A stretch of DNA of 64,000 nt from Clostridiales bacterium (GCA_004553715.1 SFKP01000010.1:25256-89255); one strand, 5' to 3'; shown: positions 9,007-47,727, counted from the stretch's first letter. Numbers and translations: made by a program. Notes: a model not told the origin generated them from the sequence alone.

Positions 9007-9150
9007 GTTACAGTTCAGACTAATTAATATATAATCCGCTCCATCTTGCTGTCGGTTGAACATTTTCTTTTCTTAGGCTAAAGTACGAAAAGAAAATGTC
9101 CAACCGACACGTGGAGCTACTAATTTGAAAATTTTGGCCTGAACATTAAC
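9007..9150 (+). mobile_element. MITE-like element, copy A (144 bp)
   Basis: 5' GTTACAGTTCAGAC ... 3' GTCTGAACATTAAC terminal inverted repeats. Internal stem of about 40 bp (gctccatcttgctgtcggttggacattttcttttc / gaaaagaaaatgtccaaccgacacgtggagc). Flanked by an AT-rich direct repeat (atttttt). Confidence 0.8.
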
Positions 9151-9172
9151 ATTTTTTATTTTGAAAACAGAT

Positions 9173-9229
9173 TTGACATTTTATGGAAACTATATTATAA
9201 TATATTTATAATGCGTTAAGTGCGCATTA
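9173..9229 (+). promoter_or_regulatory. Consensus sigma-A promoter plus a palindromic operator
   Basis: TTGACA (9173-9178), a 17-nt spacer, then TATAAT (9196-9201). The inverted repeat TAATGCG-N7-CGCATTA (9209-9229) follows immediately, and an AAGGGAGG RBS precedes the ATG at 9254. Confidence 0.6.
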
Positions 9230-9253
9230 AATAAAAGGGAGGAGATTTATTTT

Positions 9254-9601
9254 ATGAAACCAAAATCTCATTTTAAGTACTTCATCTGCTCCAATTGTGG
9301 AGCAACAGCTTCAGGGAATCCTTCCCAGGCGCCCATCTGTTGTGGCAACTCGATGTTAGAAATATCGAGGGAAATACATGATCAGCAGGCTGAAGCTAAT
9401 AAAGCTGCATATAGAATCAAAAGCCAGCAGGAAGCAAGGGAAACTATCCCCCAAAAAACCTATTGGCATTGCAAAGCCTGTGATCGCTTTACGGTCTCTT
9501 ATTCTTCTGAAGAAACGCCACCTAGGTGTCTAAACAAGCATTGCTCCAGTTACAGGAGCAATATTAGAATGGAGAAGGTAGAGTCATCTTTCCTCTCTTA
9601 A
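9254..9601 (+). CDS. Small Cys-rich (zinc-ribbon-like) hypothetical protein; GC-rich, probably foreign
   Basis: 115 aa with a strong RBS. Cys pairs at CSNCG, ICCG, CKAC and CLNKHC. Local GC is about 45-55% against about 27% around it, and the codons are atypical (cag, ccc, gcg). Confidence 0.6.
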   Translation: MKPKSHFKYFICSNCGATASGNPSQAPICCGNSMLEISREIHDQQAEANKAAYRIKSQQEARETIPQKTYWHCKACDRFTVSYSSEETPPRCLNKHCSSYRSNIRMEKVESSFLS

Positions 9602-9610
9602 GTGACAATA

Positions 9611-9648
9611 GCCCCGACAAGCTTTTTGCTAGTCGGGGCTATCTTTTA
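9611..9648 (+). terminator. Rho-independent terminator
   Basis: agccccgac-loop-gtcggggct stem followed by a T run. Confidence 0.7.
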
Positions 9649-9656
9649 AATTTGTT

Positions 9657-10538
9657 TTATGCTCTTGGATGAGCCTTTTTATATATGTTTTTTATTGATT
9701 CATCTTGAAATTGCATATATACTTGTGTAGATGATATGTCTGAATGTCCAAGCATAGTTTGTATTGATTTTAAATCTGCACCATTTTGAAGTAAATGTGT
9801 TGCAAACGAATGTCTTAACACATGTGGTGTTATGTCTTTTGTTATATGTGCTTGTTCTTTATAATATTTTATAATCTTCCAAAAGCCTTGTCTTGTTAAT
9901 CTACATCCATTTGTATTTACGAACAAAGCCTGTTCATTATCATCTTTAATTAAATATTTTCTAGAATTTTCTATATAATCTGTTAAAGCTTGTAATGAAA
10001 GTTTTCCTAATGGAATTGTTCTTTGTTTGTTTGCTTTCTTACAGAAGACATATCCATTTTCTAAGTTTACATCTGATAAATCTAATGAAATTATTTCGGT
10101 AACTCTCATTCCTGTAGCATAAGCAAATTCTAGCATTGCCTTGTCTCGAATTCCTTTTAAATCAACATTTTTAGGTTGTTCTAATAATAATGACACTTCT
10201 TGTGAAGAAAGGATTGTTGGTGCTTTTTTTTCAATTCTTGGTAATTGTATTGATTTTGTTGGATCTTGTTTTACTTTTTTATTTTTTAATAAATATTGGT
10301 AAAATAATCTAATAGAGGCTAAATGTCTTGATATTGTAGTAGGTTTTTTATTTATATCTTTTAAATATGTTAAATAATTTTTAACATCATTTTCTTGTAC
10401 TTTTAAATATTTTATATTATTGGTATCTAAATATTCTTTAAATTGAAGAACATCCCTTCTATATGATTCGAAAGTATTTTCTGATAGTTTTTTATCATTT
10501 TTTATAAATTCCAAAAATAATTCAATTTGTTTTTCCAT
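9657..10538 (-). CDS. xerD: Tyrosine site-specific recombinase XerD
   Basis: 293 aa; LSENTFESYRRDV, ATGMRVTEI and HVLRHSFATHLLQNGADLKSIQTMLGHSDISSTQVY. Adjacent to spoIIM, as in Bacilli. Confidence 0.8.
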   Translation of the reverse strand: MEKQIELFLEFIKNDKKLSENTFESYRRDVLQFKEYLDTNNIKYLKVQENDVKNYLTYLKDINKKPTTISRHLASIRLFYQYLLKNKKVKQDPTKSIQLPRIEKKAPTILSSQEVSLLLEQPKNVDLKGIRDKAMLEFAYATGMRVTEIISLDLSDVNLENGYVFCKKANKQRTIPLGKLSLQALTDYIENSRKYLIKDDNEQALFVNTNGCRLTRQGFWKIIKYYKEQAHITKDITPHVLRHSFATHLLQNGADLKSIQTMLGHSDISSTQVYMQFQDESIKNIYKKAHPRA

Positions 10539-44677: not shown

Positions 44678-44755
44678 ATTTATTCCTCCTTTTCATTAAA
44701 TATATTATAACATACTATTTTTACTTTGCACATAGTAAAGCCAAATGTCATATTA

Positions 44756-45106
44756 TTAACATACTTTTACTCCCATTTTTTTGCCACCTAGTAAGTGAAA
44801 ATGTATATGTTTAACAACTTGCCCTCCGTCTTCTCCACAATTTATTATTACTCTATAGCCTTTATCTAAAATTCCTTCCTTTTGTGCAATTTTATTAATT
44901 ACGCCATATATTTTTCCAATTACCTTTTCATCTTCTTCAGTAATATCTATTAATGAAGATATGTGTTTTTTTGGAATTACTAATATATGTACTGGTGCAC
45001 ATGGATGTATGTCTCTAAAAGCAATAATTTCGTCATCTTCATATACAATGTCTCCTGGCACTTCCCTGTTTATTATTTTACAAAATATACAATCTTCCAT
45101 TTTCAA
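44756..45106 (-). CDS. HIT-family hydrolase (Hint)
   Basis: 116 aa; CIFCKII and HIHFHLLGG histidine triad. Confidence 0.8.
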
Positions 45107-45110
45107 TCTC

Positions 45111-46880
45111 CTATTCTAAGATGGCCTTAATACGCCTTACTCCCGCCGACGAAGCCTCTTCTTTTTTTATTTTAAAAGTTCCTAATTCGCTTGTGTTTTT
45201 AACATGTGGTCCTCCACAAAGCTCCATAGATACATCTCCAATTTTATATACTGAAACTATATCTCCATATTTTTCTATAAACATTGCTTCTGCACCTTGA
45301 GCTATTGCTTCTTCTTTTTTCATTTCGAATTTTTCTACTGGAATTGCTTGTTTTATATATTCATTTACTAATTCTTCTACTTTTTGTTTTTCTTCATCTG
45401 TCATTTTTGTATCATGTGAAAAGTCAAATCTCATTCTTTCTGCCGTAATATTGCTTCCCTTTTGATGGACGTGAGGTCCTAAAACTTTTTTTAGTGCTGC
45501 ATTTAAAAGGTGTGTTGCTGTATGATATTTTGTTTCCATTTCTCCTGTAGATGCTAAACCGCCTTTAAATTTACCAGTTGAGCCTTCTCTTGATTTTTCT
45601 TGGTGTTCAGCAAATTTTTCATTAAATCCTTCAATATCTACTTTTAAATTTAACTCTTTTGCTAACTCTTCTGTTAGTTCTATTGGGAAACCATAAGTAT
45701 CATATAATTTAAAAGCAGTGTCTTTATTAATTATACTTCCTTCTAAAGAATTTACAACCTTTTCAAATTCTCGCAAACCTTTTTCCAAAGTTCTATTAAA
45801 TTTAAGCTTCTCATTTTTTAATATCTCTAATATTGTCTCTTTATTTTTCTCTAACTCGTTATAATAGACAGAATACTTTTCTATTATAAGGTTTGCTAGG
45901 TCTTGTTCCCAATTGCTATTTATATCAATGTTTAACTTTTTAGCATATCTTATTGTTCTTCTAATTAATCTTCTTAAAATATATCCTTGGTCTGTATTAG
46001 AAGGCTTAATTCCTGCATTATCTCCACTTATCATAACTATTGCTCTTATATGGTCTGCAATAATTCTCATACTTCTTTTATTTTTTTCATCTTGATAAGA
46101 TAAACCAGATATTTCTTCTATCTTCTTAATTACATCACTCCAAACTGATGATTCATAATTATCGGTTTTTCCTTCTAATATTGCAGTTACTCTTTCTACT
46201 CCAAGTCCTGTATCAACATTTTTATTTTTTAGCTGAGAGAAAGTATTATCTTGTTCATGATTATATTGCATAAAAACATTATTCCATATTTCTACCCAAT
46301 TTTCATCATCTGGGTTAAACACTTCTGGAACTTCTTCTTCACTTCTCCAATAAAATATTTCTGTATCAGGTCCACAAGGTCCTAATGATTCCATATTTGG
46401 CCACCAATTATTTTCTTCTCCTAAATATGCAATTCTTTCTTTTTTTATTCCGTGTTTCATCCAAAGCTCCGCAGTCTCGGTATCTGCCGGCACTATATCA
46501 TTCCCTTTGAAAACTGTTATTGCTAATCTTTCTTGTGGTATATTTAATTTCTTTGTTAAAAATTCAAAACTCCAATCAATTGCTTCTTCTTTAAAATAAT
46601 CTCCTAAAGACCAATTTCCTAACATTTCAAAAAATGTATGATGTGTTTTATCTCCAATTGAATCTAAATCATTTGTTCTAAAACATTTTTGAACATCTGC
46701 TAATCTTTTTCCTTCAGGATGAGTTTCTCCCTTTAAATATGGTACTAATGGTTGCATTCCTGCAGTATTAAATAAACAGGTTGGATCATTTTCTGGGATT
46801 ATTGGTGCACTTGGTATAATTTTATGACCTTTACTTTTGAAAAATTGTAAGAATTCTTTTTTTAAATCTATTGTTTGCAT
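45111..46880 (-). CDS. Alanyl-tRNA synthetase-related protein (catalytic N-terminal region only, 589 aa; lacks the C-terminal domains)
   Basis: AlaS class II core ([18 protein letters not shown]). It ends after ...[12 protein letters not shown]. Confidence 0.65.
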
Positions 46881-47031
46881 TAACTTTCCTCCTTAATAAT
46901 ATGTTTATTATACATTTTTTATATACCTATTTTCAAGTAATTTTTGAATTTTTTGTCATATTTATGTATAAAAAATTTTGCTACGCAAATAATATTTTTA
47001 AATTTACTTTGTAAAAGGAGGTACAATATTT

Positions 47032-47585
47032 TGAAAGCAACTGGAGTAGTTAGAAGAATAGATGATTTAGGAAGGATTGTTATACCTAAAGAAATAAGGA
47101 AAACTCTTAGAATTAAAGAGGGTGACCCTCTTGAGATTTTTACAGATAAAGAAGGTGAAGTAATCTTAAAGAAGTACTCTCCCATAGGAGAATTATCTGA
47201 ATTTGCTACAGGATATGCTGAAACACTTTCTAAAACTACAGGGCATATTGCTTGCATAACTGATAAAGATTCTGTAATTGCCGTATCTGGTGGTTCTAAA
47301 AAAGAATTTTTAGAGCAAGCATTAAGTCCTGAGCTTGAGAAAATAATCGAAAATAAAGAAGTTTATACAAGCAACAATAATAATCAAACTGCATTACCTA
47401 TTACTCAAAATGATAATAAAGATAGGCGTTATAATTCACAAGTTATTTACCCTATTGTTTCAGATGGTGATGTTATTGGTAGCGTTATATTGTTATCAAA
47501 AGAACAAAATACTAAAATGGGAGATATTGAGCTAAAGGTTGTTCAATCTGCAGCTGGTTTTTTAAGTAGTCAAATGGAAATTTAA
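47032..47585 (+). CDS. spoVT: Stage V sporulation protein T (AbrB-type DNA-binding + GAF)
   Basis: TTG start with an AAGGAGG RBS. MKATGVVRRIDDLGRIVIPKEIRKTLRIKEGDPLEIF is near-identical to B. subtilis SpoVT. Confidence 0.8.
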
Positions 47586-47591
47586 ATTTGC

Positions 47592-47727
47592 GTTCGAATA
47601 GGTTTCTAAATACAGCAGTTTCTTAGTGGATGTAGCATTTTTTCTTTTCAAACCTGAATAGAAAAGAAAATGTCCTACATCCCGCAAGATAGAGAGGATT
47701 TAATAAATAATAAGCACTGTTCGAACT
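47592..47727 (+). mobile_element. Divergent relative of the MITE family (copy G) between spoVT and rpsT
   Basis: The inner hairpin ggatgtagcattttttcttttc...gaaaagaaaatgtcctacatcc shares the gaaaagaaaatgtcc core. Outer inverted repeat gttcgaa/ttcgaac, followed by a T run. Confidence 0.5.

What the first reader, a model, noticed from the sequence alone, without database searches (positions are those of the whole stretch)
9007..47727. Previously unrecognised ~145-bp MITE family with 8-bp target-site duplications: six copies plus one divergent in 64 kb
The copies are at 9007-9150, 10633-10775, 18236-18378, 21441-21568, 39131-39314 and 40823-40965 (inverted), plus a divergent relative at 47592-47727. 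They share 13-14-bp terminal inverted repeats (GTTA(A/C)(A/T)GTTCAGAC ... GTCTGAACATTAAC). All have a long imperfect internal hairpin with the invariant core cattttcttttc...gaaaagaaaatgtcc. All are intergenic. Three copies have perfect 8-bp target-site duplications (aaatttta, aaaaggtc, aatttgtt) and two more have near-perfect AT-rich ones, so they moved by transposition, presumably mobilised in trans. No transposase lies in the window. At about one copy per 10 kb this is REP/Correia/BOX-like density. The element has no coding capacity and could also produce a structured RNA.
Basis: seen in the sequence. Interest (0 to 1): 0.75.

Follow-up and report, generated by a model that had tools for sequence, protein, structure and literature searches.

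The report
143-bp MITE family in gut Clostridia
A 143-base non-coding "jumping DNA" element with inverted ends and 8-base target duplications is scattered between the genes of an uncultured pig-gut Clostridia bacterium; it is real and apparently undescribed, but it is an ordinary kind of bacterial repeat, and the transposase that moved it was not found.

Summary
The window has six copies of a 143-bp element: four intact, one truncated on the right, and one with a private 40-bp internal duplication. Copies have 14-nt terminal inverted repeats, GTTA(C/A)(A/T)GTTCAGAC, with 11 hits against 1.2 expected by chance. They also have 8-bp direct target duplications.

Pig-gut metagenome contigs extend the family to 38 distinct insertion sites. 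Of these, 27 have perfect 8-bp duplications and 4 have one mismatch. All sites are intergenic, in both orientations.

Caveats:
- All six window insertions are present in every strain I could fetch. I found no empty site and no recent movement.
- No parent IS was found in the window, in 646 kb of related contigs, or in pattern scans. The best published match is the ISPepr1 subgroup of the IS4 family, and it is weak.
- The structured-RNA idea is not supported. There is no Rfam match, and stem mutations within the family break pairs.
- The conserved hairpin apex also occurs with other ends, and without inverted repeats in a second Clostridia species.

Verdict: new member of a known kind, modest interest.

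The parts
9007..9150 (+). MITE copy c1, full length (144 bp), perfect-palindrome hairpin variant. Flanking duplication 8999-9006 ATTTTTTT / 9151-9158 ATTTTTTA. Lies between divergent gatC and a small ORF.
   Evidence: (164 bits); the duplication is perfect in strain L011
10633..10775 (+). MITE copy c2, full length (143 bp). Perfect 8-bp duplication AAATTTTA (10625-10632 / 10776-10783). Its TTAAC terminus now supplies the stop codon of the SpoIIM-like gene (10771-11406, minus strand).
18236..18378 (+). MITE copy c3, full length (143 bp). Perfect 8-bp duplication TTATTTTT (18228-18235 / 18379-18386). Lies between the RNHCP-domain gene and recA.
21441..21563 (+). MITE copy c4, truncated. Model positions 1-123 are present and the right TIR is missing. 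It abuts and overlaps the 3' end of the SBP_bac_5 gene (stop at 21554). The truncation is identical in all 10 strains fetched.
39131..39314 (+). MITE copy c5 (184 bp), with a 40-bp internal tandem duplication (39160-39199 = 39200-39239) seen only in this window. Perfect duplication AAAAGGTC (39123-39130 / 39315-39322). It inserted into the left arm of the terminator hairpin at 39315-39340.
   Evidence: (D4)
40823..40965 (-). MITE copy c6, full length (143 bp), inverted orientation. Perfect duplication AATTTGTT (40815-40822 / 40966-40973). Lies between a 278-aa gene and greA.
   Evidence: (I1, 96% to c2)
47592..47727 (-). Divergent relative c7. It shares the hairpin core (47628-47705), with an invariant apex and a lower stem changed by 4 compensatory pairs. 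Its ends are different (GTTCGAAYAG) and it has no target duplication. Lies between spoVT and rpsT.
   Evidence: (27 bits)
40981..41033 (+). Half-copy remnant of a third variant: TIR-like GTTAATGGTATTAC followed by the left stem arm with the c7-type lower stem (GGATGTAG). It is truncated before the apex. c6 inserted 15 bp from it.
   Evidence: aligns with a similar remnant in L058; marginal hit at 40997-41026

Best explanation
[quoted passage not shown] Each is a 143-bp, non-coding, non-autonomous DNA transposon.

Mechanism. Each copy is bounded by 14-nt terminal inverted repeats, GTTA(C/A)(A/T)GTTCAGAC. These would be the binding and cleavage sites for a DDE-type transposase supplied in trans (inferred). 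The enzyme makes 8-bp staggered cuts in AT-rich targets (roughly AAAWWTTT), and repair of those cuts gives the 8-bp direct duplications (shown).

Interior. The interior is a long quasi-palindrome, about 30 bp of stem with apex GGACATTTTCTTTTC / GAAAAGAAAA(T)GT(C/G)C. Its most economical role is to bring the two ends together and/or act as inert filler. A host-level role, such as an RNA hairpin that affects transcript ends, is possible but not shown.

Host and history. The host is an uncultured, spore-forming pig-gut Clostridia bacterium with 28% G+C. The copies average 95.6% identity to their consensus and sit at the same sites in every strain examined. The burst of transposition is therefore old, and the element may now be immobile. 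Only insertions between genes survived.

Parent IS. The parent was not found. Its family is inferred only weakly. The IS4-family ISPepr1 subgroup is the best fit to the published end consensus, duplication length and AT-rich target preference.
For: - Copies and TIRs.
- 38 distinct insertion sites with unrelated flanks; 27 perfect and 4 one-mismatch 8-bp duplications, including G+C-containing ones (CGGGAAAG, GAATAGTG, CCAAAATG, ATATGTCG).
- Mismatched flank pairings are identical in only 8 of 1406 cases.
- Several of the imperfect sites share a flank with another site: L049 with L054; L056 with L071 and L052.
- No ORF is interrupted. Orientation relative to tandem genes is 12 opposite to 8 same.
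- The same element at the same sites in independent assemblies from many samples rules out an assembly artefact.
- A relative whose neighbouring 278-aa protein is 59% identical has a 126-bp spacer and no element where the window has 346 bp containing c6.
- The target profile is AT-rich (82% A+T): A-rich on the left, T-rich on the right.
- No coding capacity, and no transposase in the window.
- Hint at the parent family: the published ISPepr1 end consensus is YT-AA-YTT---A, with 7-8 bp duplications and AT-rich targets (PMC2266710). GTTAATGTTCAGAC matches 6 of its 8 constrained positions.
- The inward-facing promoter-like GTTACA-17 nt-TATAAT in the left end is what an IS left end often carries (the comparison is from general knowledge).
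Against: - No autonomous element with these ends was found in the window, in 646 kb of related contigs or in pattern scans. Mobilisation in trans is therefore inferred, not shown.
- No empty site was recovered from a close strain. Every insertion checked is present in all of them, so there is no direct evidence of recent movement.
- The ISPepr1 match has a 4.5% chance probability per comparison, and I compared several families. Positions 1 and 7 disagree.
- The hairpin apex is conserved beyond what a passive filler needs. It is invariant in c7, L005 and L006, which have other ends or none.
Confidence: 0.9

Rival explanations
1. The conserved central hairpin is the functional unit and the inverted-repeat ends are only one of its vehicles. 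On this reading it is a transcribed RNA hairpin (terminator, attenuator, RNase III or stability element) or a protein-binding DNA cruciform, and the family persists because hosts keep it.
For: - The apex GGACATTTTCTTTTC...GAAAAGAAAA is invariant in c7 and L006, which have different ends, and in L005, which has no TIRs. The c7 lower stem differs by 4 fully compensated pairs.
- The L005 copy is about 90% identical to the pig-gut copies, while the coding DNA of the two organisms is about 67% identical.
- Folding energies are far below shuffles, z = -4.7 to -8.8.
Against: - No Rfam family matches. The only hits are sub-threshold ones to generic microRNA-precursor hairpins.
- No T-run follows the stem, and the terminator scan does not call it.
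- Copies occur in both orientations with no bias.
- Within the main family, stem mutations mostly break pairs. All 12 double changes come from the single sequence c7. Arms of a DNA palindrome also stay complementary by descent or by template switching.
- This reading does not explain the target duplications.
Confidence: 0.1
2. The elements are REP/REPIN-like palindromes spread by a RAYT (HUH, Y1) transposase. IS200/IS605-type ends are a variant of the same idea.
For: They are high-density intergenic palindromic repeats about 140 bp long.
Against: - There are clear 14-nt terminal inverted repeats and 8-bp direct target duplications at 27-31 of 38 sites. From general knowledge, HUH-mediated insertion does not produce either.
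- No RAYT- or TnpA-like gene lies in the window.
Confidence: 0.02
3. The copies are segmental duplications or assembly artefacts rather than independent insertions.
For: Short-read contigs often break inside the element (L014, L081-L084). Some loci have flanks recombined between copies.
Against: - Similarity stops exactly at the TIR tips, and each site has its own flanks and its own duplication.
- The same six sites are reproduced in many independent assemblies from different studies.
Confidence: 0.01

Closest known systems
Bacterial MITEs in general, for example the two IS6-family MITEs listed in ISfinder (MITEBth2, MITEHarch3; PMC6807381, PMC7986276)
   Same: Short non-coding element made of two IS-like ends, with terminal inverted repeats and fixed-length target duplications (8 bp in the IS6 family), present in multiple dispersed copies and dependent on a transposase in trans.
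   Different: No cognate IS was identified here. IS6 ends have GG tips and cTGTt...caaa motifs (PMC7986276), and ours start GTTA. My hand alignment to the IS26 end, whose sequence I recalled from memory, matches only about 7 of 14 positions.
IS4 family, ISPepr1 subgroup (De Palmenaer et al. 2008, PMC2266710)
   Same: The published subgroup features are ends YT-AA-YTT---A, direct repeats of 7-8 bp and a preference for AT-rich targets. The MITE end GTTAATGTTCAGAC matches 6 of the 8 constrained positions, duplicates 8 bp and inserts in 82% A+T targets.
   Different: Positions 1 and 7 disagree (G instead of Y). The match has about 4.5% chance probability per comparison. No ISPepr1-type transposase or full IS was found, and no real ISPepr1-group sequence could be retrieved for direct comparison.
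Correia elements of Neisseria and RUP of Streptococcus pneumoniae (from general knowledge)
   Same: Intergenic elements of 100-155 bp with inverted-repeat ends at high density. They can fold into a long hairpin and may carry promoter-like sequences.
   Different: Those elements duplicate TA and belong to other IS lineages. There is no sequence similarity. Effects on transcripts are documented for them and untested here.
REP/REPIN elements with RAYT transposases (from general knowledge)
   Same: Abundant intergenic palindromes that are fixed across strains.
   Different: REPINs have no terminal inverted repeats bounded by target duplications. This family has both.

Membership tests
MITE (non-autonomous TIR transposon) | Small size and no coding capacity | tested here: met
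   The consensus is 143 bp. No ORF of at least 90 aa lies within a copy.
MITE (non-autonomous TIR transposon) | Terminal inverted repeats at both ends | tested here: met
   A 14-nt TIR sits at both ends of every full-length copy: 11 hits against 1.2 expected, conserved across 35 distinct copies.
MITE (non-autonomous TIR transposon) | Direct target-site duplication of fixed length flanking each copy | tested here: met
   An 8-bp duplication is perfect at 27 and has one mismatch at 4 of 38 distinct sites. Shuffled flank partners are identical in 8 of 1406 pairings.
MITE (non-autonomous TIR transposon) | Multiple dispersed copies with unrelated flanks | tested here: met
   Six copies in the window and at least 38 distinct sites in related contigs. 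Only 3 of the 46 metagenome loci overlap the window.
MITE (non-autonomous TIR transposon) | A related autonomous IS with the same ends that supplies the transposase | tested here: not met
   I found no solo or paired TIRs outside MITE copies and no IS-like repeat in 646 kb. There is no transposase in the window, and pattern scans found none. The complete genome could not be searched, so absence is not proven.
MITE (non-autonomous TIR transposon) | Presence/absence polymorphism, with an empty site holding one copy of the target | tested here: inconclusive
   All strains fetched carry all six insertions. No empty site turned up among the loci. A distant relative lacks c6, but it is too diverged to reconstruct the site.
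IS4 family, ISPepr1 subgroup (as parent) | End consensus YT-AA-YTT---A, direct repeats of 7-8 bp, AT-rich targets (PMC2266710, Table 1) | tested here: inconclusive
   Six of the 8 constrained end positions match, with chance probability 0.045. The 8-bp duplication and 82% A+T targets fit.
IS4 family, ISPepr1 subgroup (as parent) | DDE transposase with the YREK motif encoded between the ends | not testable with these tools
   No full-length element was recovered.
IS6/IS26 family (as parent) | 14-bp conserved TIR with a GG tip, G at position 7, cTGTt and caaa motifs, and an 8-bp duplication (PMC6807381, PMC7986276) | tested here: inconclusive
   The 8-bp duplication, the 14-nt TIR and G at position 7 are met. 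The GG tip is not met (GT), and the caaa motif is only partly met (CAGA). The clostridial long-transposase clade is said not to start with GG, but its end sequences are given only in figures.
REP/REPIN | No terminal inverted repeats with target duplications; mobilised by RAYT | tested here: not met
   Target duplications and TIRs are present. No RAYT-like gene lies in the window.
Any Rfam RNA family | Covariance-model score at or above the gathering threshold | tested here: not met
   Zero matches in the whole window at gathering thresholds. The best sub-threshold hit is 25 bits to a microRNA-precursor model whose threshold is 91.

The most novel reading that the evidence does not exclude
The invariant hairpin apex (GGACATTTTCTTTTC / GAAAAGAAAATGTCC) on a structurally conserved lower stem may be an independently selected, horizontally spreading module rather than filler. 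It could be a protein-binding hairpin or an RNA element. It rides on at least three different sets of transposon ends. It has also been retained without ends, at about 90% identity, in a second Clostridia species whose genes are only about 67% identical.
Probability: 0.12. Interest if true: 0.55.

Novelty: new member of a known kind. Interest (0 to 1): 0.3.

Why it matters
The family is a clean, well-bounded repeat, and it matters in three practical ways.
- It breaks short-read assemblies of a prevalent, uncultured pig-gut Clostridia lineage. Many contigs end inside it.
- At some sites the flanks of different copies appear recombined, either by real rearrangement or by assembly chimeras through the repeat.
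- Its termini now form the last codons of at least two genes.

A consensus and model of the family would help MAG assembly, binning and strain typing for this lineage. It would also give a handle for finding the responsible transposase.

Conceptually it adds one more MITE family to the many already known and does not open a new question. The exception would be if the conserved hairpin apex turns out to have a function of its own.

Tried and rejected
Search for the parent IS:
- TIR matches outside MITE copies in all 76 sequences then held (646 kb): only chance or partial hits.
- All-against-all search for IS-like repeats with abrupt ends: none.
- Left-end, right-end and combined end patterns against viral contigs: two chance hits inside coding sequence, otherwise nothing.

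Direct comparison with real IS ends:
- I fetched C. botulinum plasmid p1BKT015925 hoping for ISCbo1, and Pelobacter propionicus pPRO1 hoping for ISPepr1. Neither IS was there.
- The IS256-like ISCbo4 and the IS1595-like ISPepr2 that I did find have unrelated ends.
- ISPepr1 and ISTeha8 end sequences exist only as figures in the papers.

Search for empty sites:
- Predicted empty-site joins blasted against all loci gave no true hit.
- Protein variants at 99% identity all carry the insertions.

Other checks:
- Rfam in permissive mode gave only generic hairpin noise.
- Phage and plasmid collections gave no match.
- I considered MITE-mediated rearrangement at c5, where strains have different neighbours. 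I rejected it because the breakpoint lies about 20 bp outside the element.
- L074 holds an 83-nt perfect palindrome with the same apex near a truncated IS6-like transposase fragment, in a 41% G+C contig. I treat it as possibly coincidental.

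
Full report

Yes. Reading the seven stated intervals shows the same element each time, and a MAFFT alignment puts them in register.
- The repeat finder recovers the direct and inverted relationships on its own. For example, 10633-10777 against 40821-40965 is 145 nt at 96% complementarity.
- A profile HMM built from the copies finds exactly these places in the 64-kb window. 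Five hits score 145-164 bits. The copy at 39131-39314 splits in two, at 64 and 132 bits. There is a weak hit (27 bits) at 47628-47705 and nothing else above noise.
- The 14-nt end motif GTTAMWGTTCAGAC, allowing up to 2 mismatches, occurs 11 times, all at copy termini. Shuffles give 1.2 on average.
- The window is 28.4% G+C.

**2. Anatomy**

The family consensus, from 35 distinct copies, is 143 bp:

GTTACAGTTCAGACTAATTAATATATAATCCGCTCCATCTTGCTGTCGGTTGGACATTTTCTTTTCTTAGGCTAAAGCACGAAAAGAAAAGTGCAACCGACACGTGGAGCTACTAATTTGAAAATTTGGGTCTGAACATTAAC

Copies average 95.6% identity to this consensus and 92.3% to each other. From outside in, the element has:
- 14-nt terminal inverted repeats;
- non-complementary subterminal segments;
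- a short outer stem (GCTCCA/TGGAGC);
- a central stem of about 23 bp with a 14-nt loop.

The element folds at -41 to -57 kcal/mol, against about -23 for shuffles (z = -4.7 to -8.8).

Most copies have a G·G mismatch and a 1-nt bulge in the central stem. In c1, c4 and c5 the right arm is 'corrected' to a perfect palindrome. In three copies elsewhere (L039, L048 and the second copy in L007) the loop is inverted relative to the ends. I read both as the template-switch or arm-to-arm conversion events expected of DNA quasi-palindromes. That is inference.

**3. Target duplications**

In the window, c2 (AAATTTTA), c3 (TTATTTTT), c5 (AAAAGGTC) and c6 (AATTTGTT) have perfect 8-bp direct duplications. 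c1 has 7 of 8, and strain L011 has it perfect.

A pattern scan of metagenome contigs with the hairpin apex returned 46 loci, nearly all from pig-gut samples. Extracting every full-length copy with its flanks gave 73 copies at 38 distinct sites.
- 27 sites have perfect duplications and 4 have one mismatch.
- The duplications include G+C-containing 8-mers that cannot be put down to AT-richness: CGGGAAAG, GAATAGTG, CCAAAATG, ATATGTCG.
- Pairing left and right flanks from different sites gives identical 8-mers in only 8 of 1406 pairings. I attribute these to strain variants and flank recombinants of the same sites, but did not check each.
- Several of the imperfect sites combine the left flank of one site with the right flank of another: L049 with L054, and L056 with L071 and L052. 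That means either recombination between copies or assembly chimeras through the repeat.
- Targets are 82% A+T, A-rich on the left and T-rich on the right, roughly AAAWWTTT.

Only 3 of the 46 loci overlap the window, so the family is dispersed through the genome.

**4. Context and host**

Pfam annotation shows a housekeeping region of a spore-forming Firmicute. It includes gatCAB, xerD-like, spoIIM, recA, scpA, topA, greA, ssb, spoVT, rpsT, spoIVA, dnaE, clpC and ftsK. There is no transposase. The only recombinase is the XerD-like gene between c1 and c2.

Exact copies of window proteins occur in hundreds of pig-gut and other gut assemblies. A 2.8-kb contig of the MAG 'Clostridiales bacterium W1P7.012' is bounded by two copies of the element, and its flank is 95% identical to one of the metagenome loci.

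No copy interrupts an ORF. The sites with an ORF called on both sides are 20 tandem, 6 divergent and 3 convergent. Orientation relative to tandem genes is 12 opposite to 8 same, so there is no bias.

Three insertions touch gene ends.
- The TTAAC tip of c2 now provides the stop codon of the SpoIIM-like gene. Reconstructing the pre-insertion sequence from the duplication gives a TGA one codon earlier. This is read directly from the sequence.
- c3 does the same for the RNHCP-domain gene.
- The truncated c4 overlaps the last 10 nt of the SBP gene.

c5 landed in the left arm of a bidirectional terminator hairpin, which the duplication leaves intact.

**5. Age and activity**

Every strain I could fetch carries all six window insertions at the same positions.
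- That comes to 15 loci for c6, 14 for c5, 10 for c3 and c4, and 7 for c1 and c2.
- The differences seen are a T-run length change at c1, the private 40-bp duplication in c5, and an indel polymorphism in the neighbouring small ORF.

A blast of predicted empty-site joins found none among the loci. A relative whose neighbouring 278-aa protein is 59% identical has a 126-bp spacer and no element where the window has 346 bp including c6. That fits insertion, but the relative is too diverged to reconstruct the site.

The insertions are therefore old and fixed. Current mobility is unproven.

**6. Which transposase?**

None was found.
- There are no solo or paired ends outside MITE copies and no IS-like repeat in the 646 kb then held.
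- End-pattern scans of viral contigs gave only chance hits.

The published table of IS4 subgroups gives, for ISPepr1, ends YT-AA-YTT---A, direct repeats of 7-8 bp and a preference for AT-rich targets (PMC2266710).
- GTTAATGTTCAGAC matches 6 of the 8 constrained positions. The chance probability is 4.5% per comparison at this composition.
- Active IS4-family members in a Firmicute, among them one ISPepr1-subgroup element (ISTeha8), give 7-9-bp AT-rich duplications (PMC10269466 supplement).

The IS6 family also duplicates 8 bp and has 14-bp conserved ends with G at position 7 and a cTGTt motif. Its GG tip is not met here. The ends of the clostridial long-transposase clade are shown only in figures (PMC6807381, PMC7986276).

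I rank ISPepr1-type IS4 first, but with low confidence (about 0.25). IS4-family cut-and-paste insertion would also fit the simple insertions seen here. That last point rests on general knowledge.

The left end contains an inward-facing promoter-like GTTACA-17 nt-TATAAT. That is typical of IS left ends, again from general knowledge.

**7. The hairpin core beyond this family**

c7 has an identical apex, but its lower stem differs by four fully compensated pairs. It has different 10-nt ends and no duplication. A left-half remnant with a third end variant (GTTAATGGTATTAC) and the c7-type stem lies 15 bp from c6, and L058 has a similar remnant.

The GTDB species-representative scan found only three loci.
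- L006 is a c7-like hairpin next to a second hairpin, at a contig end.
- L007 is the W1P7.012 contig.
- L005 comes from a goat-rectum Clostridia MAG. It holds positions 16 to about 125 of the element at roughly 90% identity, lacks both TIRs, and sits between what look from their terminal residues like purD and purL genes (not scanned against Pfam). Coding DNA of the two organisms is only about 67% identical.

This is the one feature that goes beyond a routine MITE. However, it rests on single examples. Within the main family, stem mutations mostly break pairs, and all 12 double changes come from c7 alone. Palindrome arms can also stay complementary without selection on RNA.

No Rfam family matches.

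**8. Comparison with known elements, and verdict**

The element meets every structural criterion of a MITE except the identification of a cognate IS. It works like Correia, RUP and other bacterial MITEs but shares no sequence with them and has a different duplication length.

It is not a REP/REPIN, because it has TIRs and target duplications. It is not a duplication artefact.

I found no prior description in Rfam, in the phage and plasmid collections or in the searchable literature. ISfinder and Dfam could not be queried, so 'previously unrecognised' is likely but unproven.

New MITE families in uncultured bacteria are unsurprising. I rate this a new member of a known kind, with interest 0.3.

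Noticed in passing
window 23099-23330 and 39335-39417: A second, unrelated interspersed repeat family of about 150-160 nt. At 23099-23305 a 57-nt segment occurs twice, 150 nt apart, and the second copy is flanked on both sides by TTTCCTATACA(A). An inverted 83-nt partial copy (89% identical) lies right next to MITE c5. Further copies are in L037, L054, L041, L071, L057, L043 and L055.
   Followed up: partly
window 39315-39340: MITE c5 inserted into the left arm of a bidirectional terminator-like hairpin downstream of ssb. The 8-bp duplication AAAAGGTC is half of its stem, so the terminator stays intact.
   Followed up: yes
window 39160-39239: A 40-bp tandem duplication inside c5 (left stem arm plus outer stem). 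It is absent from the orthologous copy in the other assemblies, including L001-L004 and L076-L079.
   Followed up: yes
window 9007-9035, 10633-10661 (left end of each copy): An inward-facing sigma-70-like promoter match, GTTACA-17 nt-TATAAT, inside the left end. The right end has TTGAAA, which can pair with a -10 box formed partly by the flank. These are consensus matches only.
   Followed up: no
window 10771-10776 and 18374-18379: The stop codons of the SpoIIM-like and RNHCP-domain genes lie in the TTAAC tip of the MITE. For c2, the reconstructed pre-insertion sequence ends in TGA one codon earlier, so the insertion added one residue.
   Followed up: partly
L039:354-497, L048:1114-1257, L007:2688-2800: The 14-nt loop of the central hairpin is inverted relative to the element's ends in these copies. 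In c1, c4 and c5 the imperfect right arm is converted to a perfect complement of the left arm. This suggests template switching within the quasi-palindrome.
   Followed up: partly
L005:2173-2282 (Clostridia bacterium RGIG2998, goat rectum): A copy of the element's interior at about 90% identity but without either terminal inverted repeat, lying between genes that look like purD and purL from their end sequences (not scanned). Coding DNA of this organism is only about 67% identical to the pig-gut species.
   Followed up: partly
L074:1-83 and 715-1131 (JGI Ga0170475, 41% G+C): A perfect 83-nt palindrome with the same apex (GGGACATTTTCTTTTC...GAAAAGAAAATGTCCC) at a contig end. About 650 bp away is a truncated IS6-like transposase fragment (DDE_Tnp_IS240, 23.6 bits, below the 27-bit cut-off). 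This may be coincidence.
   Followed up: partly
window 9254-9601 and its surroundings: The small ORF with no Pfam match between c1 and the xerD-like gene is polymorphic among strains. L010 and L012 lack about 166 bp, and L011 lacks about 124 bp of it.
   Followed up: partly
window 14538-14637: A 100-nt near-perfect palindrome (two abutting 50-nt arms, 88% complementary) between convergent genes, 13313-14539 (+) and 14628-15239 (-). It may be a bidirectional terminator (I13).
   Followed up: no
window 1336-1484: A run of 9-nt tandem repeats (about 16 units) inside the ORF that carries the penicillin-binding transpeptidase domain (1322-2773, minus strand).
   Followed up: no
window 1322-3792 and 35609-37851: Two genes appear split. 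Transglycosylase (2737-3792) and transpeptidase (1322-2773) are overlapping ORFs. The FtsK 4TM region (37270-37851) is separate from the FtsK motor (35609-37189). These could be frameshifts, pseudogenes or genuine split genes.
   Followed up: no
L001, L004, L076, L077 compared with the window near 39100: The gene following ssb and c5 differs between strains: a methyltransferase, an LRR_5 protein or a UPF0122/sigma-70 region 4 protein. In the LRR_5 strains the breakpoint is about 20 bp beyond the MITE, not inside it; in L001 the sequence already differs at the first two bases of the MITE.
   Followed up: partly
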